A stretch of DNA of 31,562 bases from a virus, in UHGV virus genome UHGV-0208736; one strand, given 5' to 3'. This document shows, piece after piece, positions 1 to 14,450 of the stretch. Within the stretch, counting starts at the first letter, position 1, and each line of letters starts with the position of its first letter. Both the position numbers and the translations under genes were made by a program. The notes beneath the pieces are model-generated. The model did not search any database and was not told the DNA's origin. It saw only the letters and a program-made list of their open reading frames with translations.

Positions 1-2238
1 ATGTCAAGCGGATGTGGTGACGTTTTAAGCCTGGCGGATTTACAAACCGCCAAGAAGCACCAGATTTTCGAAGCCGAGGTTATCACCGGTAAATCCGGGG
101 GGGTCGCAGGCGGGGCTAATATCGATTATGCGACTAATCAGGCTACTGGACAGACACAGAAGACACTCCCTGCGGTGTTGCGGGACGCCGGGTTTACCCC
201 ATCATCATGGGATTTTTCAACCGGCGGTACGTTGACAACCGACGACCGTAATAAAGTAGTATACGACTCGGTAAGTATGACATGGTATTCGTACGCCGGT
301 GGGCTTCCGGTTACCGTTCCGGCAGGATTTGATCCAACGGGTGATGCTAACTGGAAGCCCGAGGCGGGGGTTACCGTAAAAGACTGGGCTAATTCTGTAT
401 TCCGAAAAATCCAGCTGATAAAAGCTGGTGGAAGCTTTCAGACGGGGGGAACCGCCACCGCCGGGGTATCCGCGTTACTTAATACGGCGGATGGATACTA
501 CTATACGCCGAGGTCTGGCGCGGTAACCGTCCCTGCTGGTAGCTCCCCCGATGAAGGATGGGAATGCGTTGGGTTAATGGCTGGGTTTGAAATTGATGAT
601 TTACGGAATTGGGGTGAGGTTGTACCAGGCCAGGATATCATGCCTCTTCTGAAAACCGCATACGGATTAACCCCTAATAAAATAACCATTCCGCCGGGGG
701 AGCATAGAATTATCCTCACAGATACTCTGGACCCTGTCAGGAATGAAACATATCCTATGGGGCTGAGAATGACCCGTCAAAATATAGACATCGAATTTTC
801 TGCCGGTGCGTCTTTAAAAATGGATGCGGTAGATTCTGAGCGATACGTAATCATAGATGCGTATTACGCCCATAACTCAAAAATAAGTAAACCGGTTATT
901 ATAGGTGATGTTGAGACCCACCCCGGAAGCACTGGTGAGTGGGGCTGTGGCATCCGCAACTTCAACAGTAGCAATCTTGTGATTGATTCGCCAAACATCA
1001 GTTATTGTTGGGGTGACGGTATCCTTTGGTTCATTACCGACGACCAACAGTACGGGGGTGCAATCACAGGTACTGGGGTATACACCCGCTGCCGTAGGCA
1101 GGGTATAAGTGTTATCTCATGTCGTGGTTTATATATTGAGGATAGTGTAGGGGTTAATATTCAAGGGGCTTCGGCGGGTCCGTGGGCTACTATTGACGTG
1201 GAGCCCGACGTATCTTCTGAGTTTATCATTGACTTAGTAATAGGCTCTGTACGTGGTGTTAATAACGCGGGACCCGCACTCCTGTTTGCGGTACACCAGC
1301 TTACCGGTGCGTCACAGCCCGTGAACATTACCGTAGGGTCCGTATCATCTATTGGATGCCAACGCTGTATAGAAATCCGTGGCGACGGAGGCGTGTCCGG
1401 AACCATTACTGTTGACTCTGTATTCGGTCGCAATAGTAAAGCTCAGGAATTACAGACTGTTAAGTGGCGAGATGACTGTAAGTTCCATATTCGTAATATG
1501 ACTAGTTTGAACTGTAATCAGAATGGCGATACTTCATCTCCGTACGGTGTTGCTGTAGGTATTTACAATAACTATGCTGGTGGCACCGCCGGCGGTATTA
1601 CGATTGAGAACCTGAACATAATTAATCGCACGACGACGCTAACACACCCTATCGCCATTACCAACACTATAGCAGGTAATGTGGGTAGCTATACCTTCAA
1701 TAACATTACATATGACCGCAGCAAGTTTACCTATCCTGAGGTTCATAACCCAGCCGCCGCGGGTATCCGTACAAACTCAAAAATTTATCAGGAGTTCACT
1801 TCTTCCGGAACTGTTACTAACTCGCGCTGGTGTAATGAGGTGCGTAACACTAACGCTACATCGGCTATAGCAGTTACTATACAATCTGGGTATGGTACAG
1901 ATGAAATGCAATTTACCTGCTACAACACATCAGGTAATCAGATGAATTTCATCTTTGCGGATATGTTGGAGGCGCGCACTACCGAAGTTCGTAGCACTGC
2001 CGCCGGGAAGATGATTTGCAAGAAGCTATTAAATACTTGGAGTATCGATACCGTGCGAGGCGAGTTCTTTAGCGCAAACGGCACCGGACGCTTCAGTTAC
2101 GGGCTAAACGAAGGCGGCACTACTGCTAACCGGCCTAGCCAGCCTTACGCATGGCAGAAGTATTTCGATACTACTCTCGGCTATGAAGTTATCTACCGTG
2201 GTGATACCTTTGCTTGGGTTAAGGCTTCTGGCGCTTAA
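1..2238 (+). CDS. tailspike / tail fibre protein with predicted right-handed beta-helix (pectin-lyase-like) receptor-degrading domain; N-terminus may continue upstream of the window
   Basis: 745-aa ORF beginning at window position 1; Gly/Asn/Ser/Thr-rich repetitive rungs typical of beta-helix (NLVIDSPNISYCWGDGILWF, GISVISCRGLYIEDSVGVNIQGAS, ITIENLNIINRT); stop TAA 2236-2238 followed by hairpin terminator. Confidence 0.55.
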   Translation: MSSGCGDVLSLADLQTAKKHQIFEAEVITGKSGGVAGGANIDYATNQATGQTQKTLPAVLRDAGFTPSSWDFSTGGTLTTDDRNKVVYDSVSMTWYSYAGGLPVTVPAGFDPTGDANWKPEAGVTVKDWANSVFRKIQLIKAGGSFQTGGTATAGVSALLNTADGYYYTPRSGAVTVPAGSSPDEGWECVGLMAGFEIDDLRNWGEVVPGQDIMPLLKTAYGLTPNKITIPPGEHRIILTDTLDPVRNETYPMGLRMTRQNIDIEFSAGASLKMDAVDSERYVIIDAYYAHNSKISKPVIIGDVETHPGSTGEWGCGIRNFNSSNLVIDSPNISYCWGDGILWFITDDQQYGGAITGTGVYTRCRRQGISVISCRGLYIEDSVGVNIQGASAGPWATIDVEPDVSSEFIIDLVIGSVRGVNNAGPALLFAVHQLTGASQPVNITVGSVSSIGCQRCIEIRGDGGVSGTITVDSVFGRNSKAQELQTVKWRDDCKFHIRNMTSLNCNQNGDTSSPYGVAVGIYNNYAGGTAGGITIENLNIINRTTTLTHPIAITNTIAGNVGSYTFNNITYDRSKFTYPEVHNPAAAGIRTNSKIYQEFTSSGTVTNSRWCNEVRNTNATSAIAVTIQSGYGTDEMQFTCYNTSGNQMNFIFADMLEARTTEVRSTAAGKMICKKLLNTWSIDTVRGEFFSANGTGRFSYGLNEGGTTANRPSQPYAWQKYFDTTLGYEVIYRGDTFAWVKASGA

Positions 2239-2244
2239 AACTAA

Positions 2245-2268
2245 GGCCCCAAACGGGGCCCTTTCTCT
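2245..2268. terminator. bidirectional rho-independent terminator between convergent tailspike and minus-strand replication operon
   Basis: GGCCCC-AAAC-GGGGCC hairpin (2245-2260) followed by CTTTCTCT on plus strand; on the minus strand the same hairpin follows the TAG stop of the small ORF ending at 2267. Confidence 0.6.
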
Positions 2269-2404
2269 ACTCTTCTGATAACTTCTCCAGTACAAACGCC
2301 AGTTGCGCATTAGCCGCGTCTCTTCGCTGGCGTAGTCGTAGAACCTCTTCTTCGAGTTCCTTGATACGTTTTTGCAATGCCGGAATCGGGGCTATGATGT
2401 TCAT
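2267..2404 (-). CDS. unannotated 45-aa coiled-coil / leucine-zipper-like peptide (MNIIAPIPALQKRIKELEEEVLRLRQRRDAANAQLAFVLEKLSEE)
   Basis: ATG 2404-2402 overlaps the TGA stop of the upstream TOPRIM gene (ATGA); GAGGA-type SD about 10 nt upstream; heptad-like hydrophobic spacing; ends at TAG abutting the terminator; below the 60-aa cutoff of the ORF track. Confidence 0.35.
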   Translation of the reverse strand: MNIIAPIPALQKRIKELEEEVLRLRQRRDAANAQLAFVLEKLSEE

Positions 2405-2916
2405 CTGGTAAATTTCCTCGCAAGATACGTTATTTCTTCTTCACAAAGTTCATCAAGGTCGTTAGATACAAATCCTCTGGTGAATGTTTTGCTGAACTTT
2501 AATCCGGCTTTATCATTGTCACCAGCGCACACCCATTCATACGGCAAAAGTGACATTTGCTGCCGTAAATCGGCGGGTATATTCGACCCAAGTGCGCTTA
2601 CAGCATTGAACCCGCAATTCATCAAAGCAACAGCTTTAAATATGCTTTCGGTAACAAATACGGTCCCGCTTTCCGGAAGGTATTCCAACCCCCATAAACA
2701 AGGTCTTGTTGTTCTGGTGAAGTACCGCGCGTCTTTAGGGTTTTTACAGTTCTTTTCAGCATGTGGCTTGTAATGCTGGTATCCGCGTAGCCTACCGTCA
2801 AAGCCCCACAAGTAGAATGTAGCAACGCCAGGGGCTAAGACTACCCGGAGACGGTCGGCGTCAAACCCACGCGCCAGCAGATGAGCTTTAAGTAGAAACT
2901 CTTCGAAATCCATCAT
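2401..2916 (-). CDS. TOPRIM-domain protein (DnaG-like primase catalytic core fragment)
   Basis: 171 aa; conserved Glu in VFVTESIFKA and DxD in WVCAGDNDKAG match the TOPRIM signature; start ATGATG overlaps helicase stop (ATGA). Confidence 0.5.
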   Translation of the reverse strand: MMDFEEFLLKAHLLARGFDADRLRVVLAPGVATFYLWGFDGRLRGYQHYKPHAEKNCKNPKDARYFTRTTRPCLWGLEYLPESGTVFVTESIFKAVALMNCGFNAVSALGSNIPADLRQQMSLLPYEWVCAGDNDKAGLKFSKTFTRGFVSNDLDELCEEEITYLARKFTR

Positions 2917-4337
2917 TTCTTACCTCGTCTCTTCATGTAATTAAGCAATTCTTCCTGTACCGATTTCTTCTCGTCTGTACGCGCGGCAACAACCTCGTCC
3001 AGCGTGTCTTTAGCAACGATGTGATAGAGGAATACCGGGCGTTCGTGGCCTGCCTGCTTCTGGCGGACCGGGCCTATACGCTCGACAACCTGCAAATAGT
3101 GCTCAAGGTTCCAGCCTTGCGAAATAAACGCCAGATGGTGACCGCCGTCCTGTAAATTCAAACCATGCCCGGCTGACGCAGGATGCACGCATAAGATTTC
3201 GATTTCGCCTCGGTTCCACGCCTCCATCTGCTTATTACCCTTCGCACCTTTAGAAAATGCCTGTGCCTGAGGGAATCGCTTAAGGATGCGTTCCAGTTCG
3301 TGCTTAAACTGATAGGCCACCAGTAACGGCGCACCCTGTAACTCCTCGACAATGGATTCCAGCGCATCCAGTTTCGTGTCATGAACTTTCTCCCAGTCTT
3401 TTGTTGCTTCGCCGTCCGGCCCTGATATGTACACTGCGCCGGATGCAATCTGCAAGCACTTCGACGTCTTCGCCGCTGCGTTAGCTGCTTCAACTTCTCC
3501 GCTTTCCAGCTCCGCGAATAGCTTCTCTTCCATGTCGATGTACGCCTGACGTGCTTTTTTCGGCAGGTCAATTTCAACCGGCACGATAATCGGCGCTTCA
3601 CACCCAAACCACTCGGCGGCGTCAATCGTGAGGCTGATGTCTTTCATCTTCTGGTGAATTTCGTTATCGGCGCCCGGGCGTGCGTGATACTCGCGGGCCA
3701 TCGCCGACTTACCTTTCTGTACAGAGTTAAACCATCGGTCGGTGAATGCCGTGTACGAAGAGCCGAGGCGCTCGCCTGCATCGATAAACCAGTTCTGACC
3801 CCACAAGTCCTTGAGGCCGTTTGGTGATGGCGTACCCGTCAGGTTAATGAAGCGCTTAACCTTTCCGAACGCCACTTTGCTAAGCGCCTTTGCCCTCTTG
3901 CTACCACCAGAACGGCTACGGAACGATTTCAGCTTCGTGCTTTCATCGGCAACGATAACAGTAAAAGGCCAGTCGTCTTTGCCGTAGTAGTCAATCAGCC
4001 ACTCGATAACTTCGTAGTTTGTACACACCACGTTAGCGTCTGACTCCAGCGCCGCGATACGGCGCTTCTCTGAACCTGTCGCATCGACGACGCTCAGACA
4101 TGGGAATTGCCATTTCTCTTGTTCCGCGGGCCATGTACCCGATGCAACGCGCAACGGGGCGAGGATTAACACCCGGTCCTCTTCCGTAAGCTGCCCGTTG
4201 CGGAACAGGCGGTTTAGAACCCACATTGTCGACGAGGTCTTGCCGCCGCCCATACCGCACCATATATTGCAACGTGGGTGCTGTAACATAAACGACGTCA
4301 TTATTTTCTGATATTCCCTGCGCCTAAACTTACTCAT
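2913..4337 (-). CDS. ATP-dependent DNA helicase, superfamily 2 (SNF2/DEAD-like)
   Basis: 474 aa; Walker A GMGGGKTS, DExx-like box IVADESTKL; start ATG overlaps stop of upstream HNH gene (ATGA); SD GGGGAG upstream. Confidence 0.7.
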   Translation of the reverse strand: MSKFRRREYQKIMTSFMLQHPRCNIWCGMGGGKTSSTMWVLNRLFRNGQLTEEDRVLILAPLRVASGTWPAEQEKWQFPCLSVVDATGSEKRRIAALESDANVVCTNYEVIEWLIDYYGKDDWPFTVIVADESTKLKSFRSRSGGSKRAKALSKVAFGKVKRFINLTGTPSPNGLKDLWGQNWFIDAGERLGSSYTAFTDRWFNSVQKGKSAMAREYHARPGADNEIHQKMKDISLTIDAAEWFGCEAPIIVPVEIDLPKKARQAYIDMEEKLFAELESGEVEAANAAAKTSKCLQIASGAVYISGPDGEATKDWEKVHDTKLDALESIVEELQGAPLLVAYQFKHELERILKRFPQAQAFSKGAKGNKQMEAWNRGEIEILCVHPASAGHGLNLQDGGHHLAFISQGWNLEHYLQVVERIGPVRQKQAGHERPVFLYHIVAKDTLDEVVAARTDEKKSVQEELLNYMKRRGKK

Positions 4338-4831
4338 GCCTTGAACTCCCCGAAGTATATTTCCGCGGCTCTTTGGTATACGCGCGACGCTTCTTCTATA
4401 GTGTCAAAATAGCCAAGGTGGATGTATTTGTTATTGACGCCTATTCTGGCGCGCCACCTGCCAGAGGGTATTTGGTAGACCCCTATCGCACCGCTAGTGT
4501 TATGTGGTGAGCAGTCTCGGTTCTGAATCTGCTGGCTCCTGGTTGCTGGCCTTATATTATTTATGGCGTTATTAGCCCTGTTACGGTCTTTATGGTCAAG
4601 CTCACCATTATGATATTCTCCGTAGACGAAAGCCCATGCCAGATGGTGGGCTTTTATTCTTACACCGGAGACCGTAATAACTATGTATCCTTTGTCGTTT
4701 GGTCCCCCGGCTACCTCCCCCGCATTTCTACCTTTTATGCTTACTTTCCGTGTAAATATGCCTGTTTCGGGGTCATAGTTAAGAAGACGTTTCGCCTCCT
4801 CAATATCAGGCCTTCTAGTTAATTTACTCAT
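4334..4831 (-). CDS. HNH homing endonuclease with AP2-type DNA-binding domain
   Basis: 165 aa; HNH core HHLAWAFVYGEYHNGELDHKDRNRANNAINNIRPAT; AP2-like GVYQIPSGRWRARIGVNNKYIHLGYFDTIEEASRVY; ATGA overlaps on both sides. Confidence 0.8.
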   Translation of the reverse strand: MSKLTRRPDIEEAKRLLNYDPETGIFTRKVSIKGRNAGEVAGGPNDKGYIVITVSGVRIKAHHLAWAFVYGEYHNGELDHKDRNRANNAINNIRPATRSQQIQNRDCSPHNTSGAIGVYQIPSGRWRARIGVNNKYIHLGYFDTIEEASRVYQRAAEIYFGEFKA

Positions 4832-5888: not shown

Positions 5889-8148
5889 AACGGTACACCT
5901 CTTCCCCGGCCCATGTTAGTGGGAACCCTTTGGCCCATTCAGGTAATGAGCATAACAGGTCGCCCATCTCTTTAACCGTGTACTCCGGTGTGTCTGGTGT
6001 TTCGGCGACACACTCATCGTGTACGTGAAGTACAATTGGGTAGCCCGCTGCCTCGACCGTCAGGAGTCCGTTGACCAGTAAATCACGGCACAACGCTTGA
6101 ATGATGTTTTCACACAATTTTCCGCCGTGTGTGTACAAAGTCGTCCACTGGCGGGTGGTCTGATTTTCGCCCTGGTATTTAATGCGAACGTTAGTTGTTA
6201 CGCGCCCATCCTCGTCGGTCTCTTTAGTGACGCTTAAACCTATACCAGGGTAGGACATGATGCGCCCAGACGGCAGTTCCACACACAACCACCAACCCGG
6301 CACAAAGTTACCCTGTCTGTCTTTCTCTTTAGTACGCCAGATGCGAATAGCCCTGTCGCCGTTAAGGCGTACTCTGGCCCCCGCCCAAAACTCTCGTCCC
6401 GGATTTCTGATTGCAGCAATCACCGAATCCTTAAGGTCGTTCCAGAATCTCACTGTTTCCGGATGGGCCTCGCGCCACATGCGCTTGATAGCGTCGCAAG
6501 TGCGCCAGACTTCCTTAGGCAACACGTAAGAGGCCCGTTCGTCCTTTTTACCAGGTTTTGGCGGCCGCTTAGCCTCCTGAATCCGCGCCCATTCATAGCC
6601 TCGGGCAGTGGCGGCCCATATATGGTCAGGGAATGTCCCCCGCATTGTCTCCGTCATTTTAAAGAGGTCCAGCCCATAAGTTTTAGCCATAGTCATGAAG
6701 GCCCCTACACCTCCCTCGTAGCCGAGGCCCAGCTCGCAACATTTCCCGACCTGTCGTAGGTCTTTACGGGTGGCTTTCAGCTCTATAGGATCCATGCCAA
6801 ACATCTTGCCCGCAGTGGCGCAATAAATATCAATCCCCGCGCGGAACGTCTCAAGGGCAGATGTCTCCCCCGCCGTCCAGGCTAACCCACGGCCTTCCAC
6901 GTTCGAGTAGTCGGCAACGAGTAACTTATTACCTTTTTCCGGGATGATGCAGCTGCGGACAGTCGAGGCCGTTAGCTTAGATACATCAAAACGGCGATGC
7001 GCCCGGCCCTTTAAAAGCAAATTGATGCCGAAGGATAGCGGGTTAAGCCTGCGGTTCCAGTCTTCGTCGGACTCCCACGGCTGGCGTACGAGTTTCTTTT
7101 CCTCGTTAGTCGGGTCGTCGTGGTAGTACCCACGCGACAGGTTCTGCGGCTGGAACCCTTTGCCCGCAAATCGTAAAGTGCGCTTTGCCCCACCGTACTG
7201 GATGCAACCACGGCGTCGTCCGTCTTTGGACCGTCCTAGCAGGAGCGGTTTATATTTTGTTGACGCCGTGGAGGCCGCGCCGAGGCGCATCTCAATGATT
7301 GTGCGCGCATCGTTAGGTAAGTCGTCGTCCTCTAGCAAACCTTCGAGCGTTGCTTTCTGCGCATTATAAATATTGTAGGCCGGTGCCAGTTCCCGAAGGA
7401 TTGGCAGGAAGTCTTTGCCCGTTAGCTTCCCGCCAAATTTCGCGCGGGCCTCGTTTTTTAGCTCTTGCTTGTGACGTTCAACTGCCGCGACCGCCGCCTC
7501 AGCAAGAGCCGTATCGACAAAGAAGCCTCGGTCGTTGATTAGCTGGTCCAGTTCCAGTACACGGTCTTCGAACTCAGAGTTACCCCAACGCGGCAGCTTA
7601 TGGAAGACCTCACGCATTGCAGTGATGTCGCTTACGGCGTACTTGATGAACAGCGCCCACTCGTCCGGGTGTGTTTCCGCGGTGTAGCGACGGATTTTGT
7701 AGTTCTTCGGCGTCGGTTTAGAGAAACGCTGAATCAGCGCCTTGCCCCGCTTATCTTTCGCGTTGTCCGCAGATACTCCCAGCACTTCGCATAATGCATC
7801 GAGTGAACCCGGCAGCGCGTGGCGAAACGCCCAAATCATCGTATCAATGGTGTTGCTTACCGGAATATCAAAACCCCAGCAGTGCTTCATGATGAGCCTA
7901 TCGAACATTAAAAAGTTATGGCCCACGATTTTCATACGTCCGCGCATAACATTACGGAGCGCCATGCGTAGGCTTATTGGCATTACTGGTTCGGAAGTGC
8001 AATCCCATACTTCTACTGGACCATCATCAACGGCATACGTACAAATTATAACCTCTGTCGTTGGGTGCTCCGCATACGCATACGACCCGACTTTCTTTAA
8101 GTCTGCTTCGGAGAATGTCTCGGTATCCAGGTATAATAAACTAGTCAT
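5878..8148 (-). CDS. DNA polymerase, family A, with N-terminal 3'-5' exonuclease domain
   Basis: 756 aa; Exo I motif YLDTETFS; polymerase motif A LLVADYSNVEGR; motif C VLHVHDECV; AAGGAA SD upstream of ATG 8148. Confidence 0.85.
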   Translation of the reverse strand: MTSLLYLDTETFSEADLKKVGSYAYAEHPTTEVIICTYAVDDGPVEVWDCTSEPVMPISLRMALRNVMRGRMKIVGHNFLMFDRLIMKHCWGFDIPVSNTIDTMIWAFRHALPGSLDALCEVLGVSADNAKDKRGKALIQRFSKPTPKNYKIRRYTAETHPDEWALFIKYAVSDITAMREVFHKLPRWGNSEFEDRVLELDQLINDRGFFVDTALAEAAVAAVERHKQELKNEARAKFGGKLTGKDFLPILRELAPAYNIYNAQKATLEGLLEDDDLPNDARTIIEMRLGAASTASTKYKPLLLGRSKDGRRRGCIQYGGAKRTLRFAGKGFQPQNLSRGYYHDDPTNEEKKLVRQPWESDEDWNRRLNPLSFGINLLLKGRAHRRFDVSKLTASTVRSCIIPEKGNKLLVADYSNVEGRGLAWTAGETSALETFRAGIDIYCATAGKMFGMDPIELKATRKDLRQVGKCCELGLGYEGGVGAFMTMAKTYGLDLFKMTETMRGTFPDHIWAATARGYEWARIQEAKRPPKPGKKDERASYVLPKEVWRTCDAIKRMWREAHPETVRFWNDLKDSVIAAIRNPGREFWAGARVRLNGDRAIRIWRTKEKDRQGNFVPGWWLCVELPSGRIMSYPGIGLSVTKETDEDGRVTTNVRIKYQGENQTTRQWTTLYTHGGKLCENIIQALCRDLLVNGLLTVEAAGYPIVLHVHDECVAETPDTPEYTVKEMGDLLCSLPEWAKGFPLTWAGEEVYRYAK

Positions 8149-8614
8149 GGCAATAAAATTCCTTATGCAGTTTTTCTCTTAATTTCTTTACCGCGCTTTC
8201 TGCTTCTTCAAGAGTTCCGTAGCTACCAGCATTGTAACTTTTGTAGTTAAAGTGTACCCGCCCATAAAATCGGTTGCCGTTTTTAACTACTCCCTTAACT
8301 CCCGTTCTAGCTCCCTTATTTTTAGCGTTTCGCACATTATCTGCGGTGGTTGCTTTCCTTAGGTTAGAAATCCTATTGTCTAACCTGTCTCGGTTTATGT
8401 GGTCAAGAGGTCCCTCGGGCCATTCACCGTACTCGAAAAACCAAGCAAGCCTGTGGGCCATGTAATATCTGCCCATATAAGGTATTCGCCAGTATCCACT
8501 ACTATTGATGCATCCTGCGATGTCTCCAGGTTTTCCTCGTCTGTACGTAGGTTGTATCCATGTGAATATCCCGGTTTCTCGGTTATAGCTAAGAAAATCT
8601 TTTATATGTTCCAT
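8141..8614 (-). CDS. HNH homing endonuclease with AP2-type domain (start taken at ATG 8614; the track start at 8638 is TTG)
   Basis: HNH core MAHRLAWFFEYGEWPEGPLDHINRDRLDNRISNLR; AP2-like GVKGVVKNGNRFYGRVHFNYKSYNAGSYGTLEEAESA; AT-rich relative to neighbours; stop overlaps polymerase start by 8 nt. Confidence 0.75.
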   Translation of the reverse strand: MEHIKDFLSYNRETGIFTWIQPTYRRGKPGDIAGCINSSGYWRIPYMGRYYMAHRLAWFFEYGEWPEGPLDHINRDRLDNRISNLRKATTADNVRNAKNKGARTGVKGVVKNGNRFYGRVHFNYKSYNAGSYGTLEEAESAVKKLREKLHKEFYCHD

Positions 8615-8626
8615 TCTGACTCCGGT

Positions 8627-8649
8627 AAAAAGGCCCAATGAAGGGCCTT
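8627..8649 (-). terminator. rho-independent terminator on minus strand after the SSB-like gene
   Basis: Minus-strand RNA: AAGGCCC-UUCAUU-GGGCCUU followed by UUUACC; 20 nt downstream of the TAA at 8669-8671. Confidence 0.45.
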
Positions 8650-12188: not shown

Positions 12189-14450
12189 CTATTCCAAATC
12201 TTCCTCGGTTACTATCAGCATCTCATTCGGTTCGTATATTGTCTTCGGAATCTTGTTATCGTTTATGCCCCACGGCAACCGGTATTGCTTAGGTATAGGC
12301 CTGTTGTTGTTATCCAGACCTGAGACGATAATCCCGGCCTCGTGCATCTCCTCCAGTTTCTTTCGAAGGTCGTTATTAGCATTAATTGGTACGCCGTAAC
12401 TATCTTCTTTCGCCGCTTTGACGATAGCTGACATAGAGAACCCTCGTTTATCGTCACCCTGCTCCTGCAATTTACCCAATGCGTAAATAACCGTAGCCTC
12501 TTTGGTGTCCAGTTTCTCGAACTGGCCTACCTTTTCTTTAACGGCTTCCTTCTGTTCGTCGGTCAGACCTTCTACTTTCTTCACGAAGACAGAGAATGCG
12601 TTGAAGTTAACAAAGACATCAATATGCGGATTTCCTGCGTCAAAATCGCGTACATCATCACTACTATACCCTTCCGGAAGACCCATGAAGTTGTGAGTTG
12701 GTTCTTTCTTTTCTGGCGGCTCCGCTATCTGAATCTTCTGTATTACGAACCCTCTGGCTTTTTGCCGTTCTCCGTTTCGGTTCTTTATGTGGTACAGGTT
12801 TATCTCTAAGTTATTGTCGTTGTCCGGCTTATGCAGGAACATCCCGTTGTCGATGGAGTTGTGGAAATCACTACCACCCTTCGGCATCATGCCGTTCTCG
12901 GATGGTACTGTTTCGTCGATGTTTTTAGTCGGGTGCACCATAGCGCCTACCGCGGCGTTAAGCGTCGACGCTATTTCGTTAAGCGCCTGCGCCGCCTCTT
13001 TCATCGACCTGTTGTCGTTCTCGTCAAAACCAGGTATGCAAGTTTGCAGGGTATCAAACGTAACCTTTACAATTTTCTCTTCACCGGCAACACGACGCAT
13101 CATTCTCACCGCCTGGCGGCGCCACACCTCATCGAGTAAGTTACACCCTTCCGCGACACAATCGATGATGTGCAAGCGGTCAAGGCTATCGCCGAGGGCA
13201 ATCTGTAAAGATTTTTTATGCCTCTCGAACGACTGCGCACCTTCTCCAGCGAAAATGAACGCATGCCCTTCAGCAACCTCTGCCCCGCCGAACGCATATC
13301 TTTTTTCGGCAGCAATAGCGGCGTCAATCGCCATACTAAATGTTGACTTACCAGTGTGGGACTTTGCACAAATGTAGAATGATTCGTTAGTCTGCATAAG
13401 ACCGTCCACTACGGAGTAAGCAGGTTCTTTTTCTACTTCCGGCTCGTCTTCAAGGTCTTCAAGCGTGCAAGTTACAGGCTCCTCGTTCTCTGTGCGGTGC
13501 AGTTCTTCAATATCTTCATCCGGTAAATCAGGCAGAGCCGCACGGATGCTATTAATACTGATAGGTTGCTTGTCTACGTTAAGCTCGTCCGGAAGACCGC
13601 ACATACGCAGGGCCAAATGCTGCCGACGGTTTAGCTCAGTGCAAGCGCCATTGTTTGTATGCTGGCAGACAAAGCGCACTTCTTTACCGTCAAGCATGAT
13701 GCTTGTGGAGCCTTTGCCGGTATGCAGATGTTCGTTAGGGCATGGAACTTCGTACCCGCGCCCGGAAGATAAAGCGTCAAGGCCAAGCTCCGCTTCGCAG
13801 AAATGCGCTATATCAGCGTTAAGCCCATGCTCATCGGCAGCAAGTGTCTTAGCTTCACGTTTACGCAGCCCCATCTCTTCGGCTTTCTTGATGTACCGCT
13901 CCGCACGGATAACGCGCCCTTCAGTAACAGTTATCTTTGACTCTTTATGAGGCAGGTAGATAAGGCGGTTGCCGTCTTCGGTGCAGTGGTCGCGCAACGC
14001 TTCGTCTATTTCTAACTCCGCACAAATAGCACGTTGCACCATCCATGCATCGTTAGAGTTAAATGGAGTGCGGGCAGGTACGAGAACGCGGAAAGCGTAG
14101 TCACCGTTTTTACACGCGTGCTGGTGCGACGCCGTTGTGTGCAGAATATTGAAGAACGTCGCGTTCTTGAATTTGCGGGTAAGGTCGCGGTACTGAGTAC
14201 GGTTGAGATGGTCAAAGTCGAACTTAACCACACTATCTTCCAGAATCGCGTTCTTACGGCGACCCCCAACAGGTGCAATTGCTTTCTGCTTAATCTTGGC
14301 AGCGTCGTACTCTTCCTTAGACCACGACGGATCCACGGATAAACGCTTGGATGTATCGCAGACATACTCTACGAACTGCTCCAGCGGCATTTCACGAGCT
14401 ACAGGGTTTTTATCGAATGTGTTGCGCAGTGTCGCAAAAACAATATTCAT
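12189..14450 (-). CDS. DNA primase-helicase-like replication protein: archaeo-eukaryotic primase (AEP)-type N-terminal domain plus P-loop NTPase domain
   Basis: 753 aa; AEP-like motifs KFDFDH (DxD) and TTASHQH (sxH); Walker A AKSHTGKST; Walker-B-like LHIID. Confidence 0.6.
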   Translation of the reverse strand: MNIVFATLRNTFDKNPVAREMPLEQFVEYVCDTSKRLSVDPSWSKEEYDAAKIKQKAIAPVGGRRKNAILEDSVVKFDFDHLNRTQYRDLTRKFKNATFFNILHTTASHQHACKNGDYAFRVLVPARTPFNSNDAWMVQRAICAELEIDEALRDHCTEDGNRLIYLPHKESKITVTEGRVIRAERYIKKAEEMGLRKREAKTLAADEHGLNADIAHFCEAELGLDALSSGRGYEVPCPNEHLHTGKGSTSIMLDGKEVRFVCQHTNNGACTELNRRQHLALRMCGLPDELNVDKQPISINSIRAALPDLPDEDIEELHRTENEEPVTCTLEDLEDEPEVEKEPAYSVVDGLMQTNESFYICAKSHTGKSTFSMAIDAAIAAEKRYAFGGAEVAEGHAFIFAGEGAQSFERHKKSLQIALGDSLDRLHIIDCVAEGCNLLDEVWRRQAVRMMRRVAGEEKIVKVTFDTLQTCIPGFDENDNRSMKEAAQALNEIASTLNAAVGAMVHPTKNIDETVPSENGMMPKGGSDFHNSIDNGMFLHKPDNDNNLEINLYHIKNRNGERQKARGFVIQKIQIAEPPEKKEPTHNFMGLPEGYSSDDVRDFDAGNPHIDVFVNFNAFSVFVKKVEGLTDEQKEAVKEKVGQFEKLDTKEATVIYALGKLQEQGDDKRGFSMSAIVKAAKEDSYGVPINANNDLRKKLEEMHEAGIIVSGLDNNNRPIPKQYRLPWGINDNKIPKTIYEPNEMLIVTEEDLE

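What the first reader, a model, noticed from the sequence alone, without database searches (positions are those of the whole stretch)
2267..2404. Unannotated 45-codon leucine-zipper-like ORF coupled to the TOPRIM gene
An ATG overlapping the TOPRIM stop codon (ATGA) opens a 45-codon ORF with heptad-spaced hydrophobic residues. It terminates exactly at the base of the bidirectional terminator, so the operon's last coding sequence and its terminator are tightly packed. It could be a small dimerising regulator or a replisome accessory peptide.
Basis: seen in the sequence. Interest (0 to 1): 0.35.

Follow-up and report, generated by a model that had tools for sequence, protein, structure and literature searches.

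The report
Conserved small coiled-coil phage gene
The 45-codon reading frame is a real small gene, kept under strong protein-level selection in essentially all phages of this group and already listed as a hypothetical protein; it encodes one zipper-like helix of unknown function, and its link to the neighbouring TOPRIM gene is incidental.

Summary
The ORF exists as described, on the minus strand (2404->2267). Its ATG overlaps the TOPRIM stop (ATGA), and its TAG lies 4 nt from the hairpin shared with the convergent tailspike gene. The window is a Kagunavirus (Guernseyvirinae).

The ORF is not new. It matches phrog_5915 (E 5e-26) and is annotated in many GenBank relatives as 'hypothetical protein' or, wrongly, 'exonuclease subunit SbcD'.

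It is a real gene: dN/dS is 0.08 in this frame (dS 0.7), against 0.16-3.5 in the other five frames. The frame is open in all 29 loci examined. The core ELE(E/A)E(V/N)(L/A)RLRQQRDAANAQL is found in 591 phage records.

The TOPRIM link is incidental. Only about 64 records carry that gene. Elsewhere the small gene is coupled to an HNH endonuclease gene or directly to the SNF2 helicase gene. At least 67 unrelated N-termini are fused to the same core.

AlphaFold2 gives one helix (pLDDT 91). One heptad register fits, and the residues favour a parallel dimer.

Function is unknown. My best guess is a dimeric helix that binds a conserved partner during DNA metabolism. HNH cassettes insert beside and inside the gene but preserve its translation, which argues that the peptide matters. 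Interest is low to moderate.

The parts
2267..2404 (-). 45-codon small gene (ATG 2404-2402, TAG 2269-2267). It encodes a single amphipathic helix and is a member of phrog_5915.
   Evidence: ORF; phrog_5915, E 5e-26, full length; codon-level purifying selection; AF2 helix 7-44, pLDDT 91
2300..2368 (-). Near-invariant core, codons 13-35 (RIKELEEEVLRLRQRRDAANAQL). The minimal shared unit across the family is codons 16-35. The window is unusual in having R27 where every other locus has Q.
   Evidence: protein alignments; synonymous third-position changes with the amino acids kept; pS 0.53, pN 0.07
2401..2404 (-). ATGA overlap: the start of the small gene overlaps the stop of the upstream cistron, giving translational coupling.
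   Evidence: The same xTGA overlap with whatever gene lies upstream is seen in most of the relatives listed; L024/L025 instead start 9 nt after the upstream HNH gene.
2415..2419 (-). GAGGA Shine-Dalgarno-like element 10 nt upstream of the ATG, inside the TOPRIM coding sequence.
   Evidence: identical in all Toprim-type relatives
2243..2262 (.). Palindromic G+C hairpin (GGCCCC-N4-GGGGCC) shared by the two convergent operons. It is a probable bidirectional intrinsic terminator and the mosaic boundary of the tailspike cassette.
   Evidence: z = -3.15; conserved in the Kagunavirus-type relatives listed; tailspike 3' ends diverge immediately beyond it
2401..2916 (-). 171-aa Toprim_2 protein gene. 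It is the upstream cistron in this window only; it is accessory and not part of the conserved unit.
   Evidence: Toprim_2 22.9 bits, phrog_849 E 1.7e-48; about 64 Guernseyvirinae records with >=80% identity
2913..4337 (-). SNF2-family helicase gene. In genomes lacking an insert, the small gene is coupled directly to this cistron.
1..2238 (+). Convergent tailspike gene whose 3' end abuts the hairpin. It is the one constant neighbour of the small gene across lineages.

Best explanation
It is a genuine, near-universal small gene of Guernseyvirinae phages (Kagunavirus, Jerseyvirus, Cornellvirus). It is the last cistron of the leftward DNA-metabolism operon and is translated by coupling (ATGA or GTGA overlap) to whatever cistron precedes it. 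Its product is one amphipathic alpha-helix (residues ~7-44). The heptad register (a = I/V/R/L/L, d = L/L/L/A/V, with g-e' pairs R13-E18 and E20-R25) predicts a parallel two-stranded coiled coil. The 20 residues E16-L35 are conserved on all faces of the helix, not only at the a/d seam. I therefore infer that the dimer works by docking onto a conserved partner. That partner is most plausibly a component of the phage DNA replication/recombination machinery, since the SNF2 helicase is the default coupled upstream cistron, or else a host factor. The N-terminal segment and the last ~10 residues are exchangeable.

Shown: the gene is real, is under protein-level selection, is helical, fits one heptad register, and is independent of TOPRIM.

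Inferred: the dimeric state, binding as the mode of action, and the identity of the partner.
For: - Selection: dN/dS is 0.075-0.08 in the ORF frame with dS ~0.7. The other five frames give 0.16-3.5. Within Toprim-type genomes the small gene is at least as constrained (0.03) as the Toprim gene (0.089).
- Frame: it is open in all 29 loci examined. A tblastn match covers >=80% of the query in 218 of 222 records. The core is found in 591 phage records, against about 450 records with a >=80%-identical helicase.
- Family size: there are 146 clusters in the 5.8-billion-protein set, the long contigs all ~40-46 kb phage-sized. An exhaustive profile search found 159 hits. The two sets together hold 212 small proteins carrying the core.
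- Start codon: it overlaps the upstream stop in Toprim, HNH and helicase contexts alike.
- In-frame rescue events: an HNH N-terminus is fused in frame to the core (L016). An HNH cassette inserted between codons 27 and 28 brings a surrogate C-terminus with the same pattern (L022).
- Structure: AF2 gives a single helix, pLDDT 91. One heptad register fits. The commoner family variant has Asn at the 'a' position 21 (EAENARL); from established coiled-coil rules (GCN4 Asn16; Harbury 1993, from memory) this favours parallel dimers.
- Profile similarity: PDB profile hits are only leucine zippers (GCN4, RbdA; E 0.002-0.01).
- RNA alternatives: there is no Rfam match and no unusual RNA fold in the coding part.
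Against: - There is no direct evidence of translation. The one Kagunavirus transcriptome paper gives no data for this gene, and no paper contains the peptide.
- Oligomeric state and partner are inferred only.
- Operon position is weak evidence for a replication role. In L026 and in Segzyvirus the neighbour is not the helicase.
- Heptad periodicity alone is only marginally above shuffles (p ~0.04-0.07).
- R28 at 'a' and A31 at 'd' make the central part a poor canonical zipper.
Confidence: 0.55

Rival explanations
1. It is a host-directed small effector (host take-over or anti-defence). The invariant helix docks on a conserved hub and the exchangeable N-terminal modules diversify under conflict with the host. 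The 45-aa window form is the minimal version.
For: At least 67 unrelated N-terminal groups are fused to the same core among 212 small proteins. At least one N-terminal module type is itself under purifying selection (pS 0.57, pN 0.135), so the modules are not mere junk. The gene sits at an operon end in a hot spot of gene flux. No relative exists outside this phage lineage.
Against: Some N-termini are plainly fragments of neighbouring genes: the HNH N-terminus in L016 and a phrog_28884 fragment in P0193. This fits tolerated read-in better than designed modules. No match to any defence or anti-defence family was found with the libraries tried. The commonest form has only a 12-residue N-terminus.
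Confidence: 0.25
2. The conservation is really at the DNA level. The ~80-bp core would be a homing-endonuclease target and a recombination linker bounding the swappable tailspike cassette, and the peptide would be irrelevant.
For: HNH genes lie immediately upstream, downstream and inside the core. In Segzyvirus a 1.5-kb block shared with Jerseyvirus begins in the middle of the core. L026 shares only the ~80-bp core at 89% identity with isolated phages. Tailspike 3' ends diverge right after the hairpin.
Against: Third-position changes are abundant while the amino acids stay fixed (pS 0.53 against pN 0.07, and 0.03 in the RLRQQRDAANAQ segment). DNA-level constraint would suppress the synonymous changes too. 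Every rearrangement keeps an in-frame start. The inserted HNH cassette supplies a surrogate C-terminus. Where selection is evidently absent (Segzyvirus), the fragment is truncated and the neighbouring peptide gene has lost its start. The DNA roles are best seen as consequences of the gene being conserved.
Confidence: 0.07
3. It is a chance ORF, or the detached or frameshift-fused C-terminus of the TOPRIM protein.
For: ORFs of this length are common by chance in the window. The ATGA overlap would allow a fusion by frameshifting.
Against: The ORF persists, with its own start, in the roughly 90% of relatives that lack the Toprim gene. dN/dS is 0.08.
Confidence: 0.02
4. It is an SbcD-type exonuclease subunit, as annotated in several GenBank relatives.
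For: The product name 'exonuclease subunit SbcD' appears in Golestan, ST20, XY1 and others.
Against: The protein has 45 residues and no metallophosphoesterase domain. No Pfam, NCBIfam or PDB match to SbcD or SbcC was found. The name probably comes from a coiled-coil cross-hit.
Confidence: 0.01

Closest known systems
PHROG families phrog_5915 and phrog_13851 (small proteins of unknown function in Guernseyvirinae phages; e.g. YP_009620111.1 of phage Golestan, Jersey_34 of phage Jersey)
   Same: Full-length match to phrog_5915 (E 5e-26) and a core match to phrog_13851 (E 2e-14). The protein is 98% identical to annotated proteins of Kagunavirus relatives, in the same position between the replication operon and the tailspike.
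   Different: Nothing substantive. The window protein carries R27 instead of the otherwise invariant Q27. phrog_13851 members have a 33-residue N-terminal module that the window form lacks.
GCN4-type leucine zipper (parallel dimeric coiled coil)
   Same: Leu at three successive d positions with beta-branched residues at a. The commoner family variant has Asn at an a position. g-e' charge pairs are present. Weak profile similarity to GCN4 zipper chains (E ~0.005). A single long helix.
   Different: There is no basic DNA-binding region N-terminal to the zipper. The central heptads have R and A in the core. It is not homologous, and the similarity is compositional. Oligomeric state was not tested.
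ZapB, DUF1192 and DivIC-type small bacterial coiled-coil proteins
   Same: Similar size and a coiled-coil pattern, with recurrent sub-threshold Pfam hits (ZapB 16.9-18.7 bits, DUF1192 21.7 bits).
   Different: All hits are below the curated cut-offs (31.5 and 25.5 bits). There is no evidence of common descent or of a cell-division role.
Small helical phage effectors such as lambda CIII and T7 gp5.9 (named from memory, not tested here)
   Same: Peptides of about 50 residues that act by binding a partner. T7 gp5.9 is, as I recall, a dimeric coiled coil.
   Different: No sequence similarity was found. The net charge here is ~0, so it is not an acidic DNA mimic like gp5.9. These are virulent phages, so a CIII-like lysogeny role does not apply.

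Membership tests
phrog_5915 (Guernseyvirinae small hypothetical protein) | Significant full-length match to the family HMM | tested here: met
   E 5.2e-26, 91 bits, residues 1-45 on profile positions 3-47 of 53
phrog_5915 (Guernseyvirinae small hypothetical protein) | Conserved position: last or next-to-last cistron of the leftward operon, convergent with the tailspike gene | tested here: met
   Window and relatives. L027 is an exception, with two further genes downstream.
Protein-coding gene (as opposed to a chance ORF) | Excess of synonymous over non-synonymous change in this frame only, with the frame uninterrupted in relatives | tested here: met
   dN/dS 0.075-0.08 against 0.16-3.5 in the other frames; the frame is open in 29 of 29 loci
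Protein-coding gene (as opposed to a chance ORF) | Direct evidence of translation (Ribo-seq or mass spectrometry) | not testable with these tools
   No dataset was found. The Kagunavirus RNA-seq paper gives no gene-level data for it.
Parallel dimeric coiled coil / leucine zipper | Continuous heptad repeat of at least 4 heptads with hydrophobic a/d positions | tested here: met
   Unique register across residues 10-42, though a28 = R and d31 = A. AF2 gives a single helix 7-44.
Parallel dimeric coiled coil / leucine zipper | Forms a dimer | not testable with these tools
   Only monomer prediction is available. The dimer is inferred from the a/d residue types and from Asn at 'a' in relatives.
bZIP transcription factor | Basic DNA-contacting region (N-x2-AA-x2-[CS]R type) immediately N-terminal to the zipper | tested here: not met
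   The N-terminus is MNIIAPIPALQK. For the window protein itself no bZIP family appears among the Pfam hits up to E 0.1. The only bZIP_2 hit is sub-threshold (17.6 bits against a cut-off of 22.3), in one relative, and covers the zipper only.
SbcD exonuclease subunit (name used in relatives) | Calcineurin-like metallophosphoesterase domain of about 400 aa | tested here: not met
   45 aa; no such hit in Pfam, NCBIfam or PDB searches
DUF1192 (PF06698) and ZapB (PF06005) | Score at or above Pfam's gathering threshold | tested here: not met
   21.7 bits against 25.5, and 16.9 bits against 31.5

The most novel reading that the evidence does not exclude
The invariant 20-26-residue helix would be a docking module shared by more than 60 unrelated N-terminal modules. 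That would make this a polymorphic, modular small-protein family sitting in a homing-endonuclease and tailspike-exchange hot spot. The core would tether diverse heads to one conserved hub (the phage replisome or a host target), and HNH cassettes that cut the core DNA would carry their own surrogate C-terminus to keep the gene working.
Probability: 0.2. Interest if true: 0.55.

Novelty: already known. Interest (0 to 1): 0.25.

Why it matters
The gene itself is already catalogued (PHROG, GenBank), so finding it adds no new kind of thing.

What this analysis adds:
- The TOPRIM link is incidental.
- The 'SbcD exonuclease subunit' name carried by several records is wrong.
- The peptide is among the most constrained sequences in these phages.
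- Mobile HNH genes that land next to or inside it always leave it translatable.

Together these points mark it as a good, cheap target for functional work on small phage proteins. A 45-residue peptide can be synthesised, and Kagunavirus isolates that grow on an E. coli K-12 host with restored O16 O-antigen exist in the BASEL collection.

Tried and rejected
- Chance ORF: rejected by codon-level selection.
- RNA element: no Rfam hit. The coding part does not fold unusually (z = -1.0). Only the terminator hairpin stands out (z = -3.15).
- TOPRIM C-terminal module or frameshift product: rejected because the gene persists without Toprim.
- SbcD: rejected.
- Known domain in the window protein or in ten long relatives: only sub-threshold coiled-coil cross-hits.
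- Solved-structure relatives: only zipper peptides at E >= 0.0016.
- Literature:
  - A search for the peptide string found nothing.
  - The Kagunavirus RNA-seq paper has no gene-level data for this ORF.
  - The BASEL paper does not discuss it.
  - The search for the CM001 synthetic-biology phage led nowhere.
- Fold search of the model: not run, because a single helix gives meaningless matches.

Full report
**1. The observation**

The ORF is on the minus strand, 2404->2267, and has 45 codons: MNIIAPIPALQKRIKELEEEVLRLRQRRDAANAQLAFVLEKLSEE.
- Its ATG (2404-2402) overlaps the TGA (2403-2401) of a 171-aa ORF (2916->2401). That ORF matches Pfam Toprim_2 just above threshold (22.9 bits against 22.1) and phrog_849 'DNA primase' (E 1.7e-48).
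- A GAGGA lies 10 nt upstream of the ATG.
- The TAG stop (2269-2267) is 4 nt from an 8-pair hairpin (2262-2243 as RNA; core GGCCCC-N4-GGGGCC at 2245-2260). The hairpin is 4 nt from the TAA of the convergent tailspike gene (1-2238).
- The description is therefore accurate, apart from not naming the strand.
- Length alone means nothing, because one search lists many spurious ORFs of 45-90 aa nearby.

**2. Where the window comes from, and whether the ORF is known**
- The region is 89-95% identical to Kagunavirus phages and, over most of its length, to Jerseyvirus phages (Guernseyvirinae).
- The ORF matches phrog_5915 over its full length (E 5e-26).
- In GenBank relatives it is annotated as 'hypothetical protein' or 'exonuclease subunit (SbcD)'. 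A few records omit it.
- The SbcD name has no basis. The protein has 45 residues, and Pfam, NCBIfam and PDB sequence searches show no nuclease domain.

**3. Is it a real gene?**
- tblastn finds the protein in 222 phage records, 218 of them with >=80% coverage of the query.
- The commoner core variant (EAENARL) is found in 591 records. About 450 records carry a >=80%-identical helicase.
- The 5.8-billion-protein set holds 146 clusters, the long contigs all ~40-46 kb, i.e. phage-sized.
- In 29 loci with DNA in hand the frame is always open.
- Substitutions in the core fall mainly at third codon positions and leave the amino acids unchanged:
  - ORF frame: pS 0.46-0.53, pN 0.05-0.07, dN/dS 0.075-0.08.
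  - Other five frames: 0.16-3.5.
  - Among Toprim-type genomes: 0.03 for the small gene and 0.089 for Toprim.
- There is no Rfam match, and the coding part has no unusual RNA fold.
This is a protein-coding gene under strong purifying selection.
- Direct evidence of translation is still lacking.

**4. The TOPRIM link is incidental**
- Only about 64 Guernseyvirinae records have a >=80%-identical Toprim gene. The next relatives are ~46%-identical proteins of T5-like phages and Erwinia jumbo phages.
- In Jersey, fEg-Eco19 and VSiP the same slot holds a 161-163-aa HNH endonuclease. SE124_1FR holds an internally deleted HNH remnant.
- In K1ind1, F12013, L018 and L020 the small gene follows the SNF2 helicase directly.
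- In most of the loci listed the start codon (ATG or GTG) overlaps the stop of the preceding cistron; L024/L025 start 9 nt after it.
- The one neighbour that stays constant is the 3' end of the convergent tailspike gene. This holds even in L026, a distant relative where no helicase is nearby.

**5. Anatomy of the family**
- An exhaustive profile search of 1.84 billion representatives gave 159 hits. Together with the earlier set, 212 small proteins (47-149 aa) carry the core ELE(E/A)E(V/N)(L/A)RLRQQRDAANAQL.
- Their N-termini (11-71 residues) fall into 67 groups with no detectable similarity to one another. Three groups are large (64, 28 and 26 members).
- The C-terminal tails also come in several types.
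- Some N-termini are fragments of neighbouring genes:
  - the HNH N-terminus is fused in frame in F12013;
  - a phrog_28884 fragment forms the N-terminus of P0193.
- Others are real modules. The phrog_13851-type N-terminus has pS 0.57 and pN 0.135 between L024 and VSiP.
- The window form has the shortest and commonest N-terminus.

**6. Mobile elements and mosaic boundaries**
- In L022/L023 an HNH cassette lies inside the gene, between codons 27 and 28.
  - It brings a surrogate C-terminus (LDSANSQIQIFVEIITGGVE) with the same pattern.
  - The original 3' part (RDAANAQLAFVLEKLSEE*) is left stranded downstream without a start.
- In Segzyvirus Segz_1, which is outside Guernseyvirinae, a 1.5-kb block 82-85% identical to Jerseyvirus starts in the middle of the core. 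It runs through the hairpin into the tailspike receptor-binding part.
  - There the fragment is truncated to 26 codons after a terminator.
  - The adjacent 30-aa peptide gene has lost its start.
- In Kagunavirus relatives the tailspike 3' ends diverge immediately beyond the hairpin.
- I read this as follows. The gene's conserved DNA is exploited as a homing site and as a homology arm for tailspike exchange. Within Guernseyvirinae every rearrangement that survives keeps the core translated. Outside the lineage the fragment decays.

**7. Structure**
- AlphaFold2 with a 22-sequence alignment gives one helix, residues 7-44, mean pLDDT 91.
- One heptad register fits: a = I14, V21, R28, L35, L42 and d = L10, L17, L24, A31, V38. 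Favourable g-e' pairs are R13-E18 and E20-R25.
- In the commoner variant, position 21 (a) is Asn.
- By the established rules for coiled coils (beta-branched residues at a, Leu at d, buried Asn; from memory), this favours a parallel dimer.
- PDB profile hits are zipper peptides only, at weak E-values.
- Conservation also extends to the b, c and f positions from E16 to L35. A homodimer seam does not require that. I take it as a sign of a second interface with a conserved partner.

**8. Function**
- Nothing identifies the partner.
- The operon encodes an AAA_25 protein, a DUF2800 nuclease, an Enc34-type SSB, Pol A, VRR-NUC, the SNF2 helicase and HNH genes.
- My preferred reading is a dimeric helical accessory protein of phage DNA metabolism.
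- A host-directed effector with exchangeable heads is the main rival.
- A purely DNA-level role is unlikely given the synonymous variation.

**9. Verdict**

Its tie to TOPRIM is accidental, and its function remains open. Novelty: already known. Interest: low to moderate. The main point of interest is that the peptide is unusually constrained, modular, and embedded in a hot spot of mobile-gene and tailspike exchange.

Noticed in passing
window 2401-2916 (-): The 171-aa Toprim-only protein is an accessory gene. About 64 Guernseyvirinae records carry it, and in other members the same slot holds an HNH homing endonuclease. Its next relatives are ~46%-identical small proteins of T5-like phages and Erwinia jumbo phages. 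It lacks a zinc-finger or helicase-binding part, so it may not be the replicative primase. The 753-aa AAA_25 protein (12189-14450) is a likelier candidate.
   Followed up: partly
L022 3001-3700 and L023 (Logan contigs SRR33512311_20, ERR9710405_884): An HNH cassette is inserted inside the small gene between codons Q27 and R28. It carries a surrogate C-terminus, and the original 3' end of the gene is stranded behind the HNH gene. This looks like intron-less homing that repairs the gene it splits.
   Followed up: partly
L014, L015, L016 (phages Jersey, SE124_1FR, F12013): These three phages show a decay series of one HNH gene. First it is full length (161 aa), then it has an in-frame internal deletion (58 aa), then its first 16 codons are fused in frame to the small gene.
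   Followed up: yes
L030 2989-3180 (Salmonella phage Segz_1, Segzyvirus): An unannotated remnant of the core (26-codon ORF MLHQSQIRQQRDAANAQLDFIMENLK) and of the 30-aa hydrophobic peptide (start lost) lies between the SSB terminator and the tailspike. It is part of a 1.5-kb tailspike cassette 82-85% identical to Jerseyvirus.
   Followed up: yes
L003 1369-1461, L015 2153-2245 (Jerseyvirus); absent from the window: Jerseyviruses have one more coupled (ATGA) cistron after the small gene. It encodes a 30-aa hydrophobic peptide, MKYSMGAKCFLIGYGLTTVALLIAVVVLLS, probably a single transmembrane helix.
   Followed up: no
window 2243-2262 and relatives: The palindromic stem is constant, but the 4-nt loop differs among relatives (GTTT, AAAC, TTTC, GAAC). 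GTTT and AAAC are reverse complements, as expected if the hairpin is flipped during tailspike-cassette exchange. In L026, where the protein tail ends ...KAP*, the stop codon TAA lies in the hairpin loop.
   Followed up: no
window 2324-2326 (codon 27): The window protein has Arg (CGA) where all 28 other loci examined have Gln (CAA or CAG), at a nearly invariant g position. This is either a real variant or a sequencing error.
   Followed up: no
window 4334-4831 (-) and 8141-8638 (-): The replication operon holds two free-standing HNH endonuclease genes, one of them with an AP2 domain. This is consistent with heavy homing-endonuclease traffic in this module.
   Followed up: no
L026 (Logan SRR30397336_14748, 6.4 kb): This is a distant Guernseyvirinae-like phage. 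Its tail J gene matches known phages at only ~70% nucleotide identity, and its genes upstream of the tailspike (HTH_ParB, DUF5484, DUF551, DUF4060) have no close match among isolated phages. It shares only the ~80-bp core at 89% identity.
   Followed up: partly
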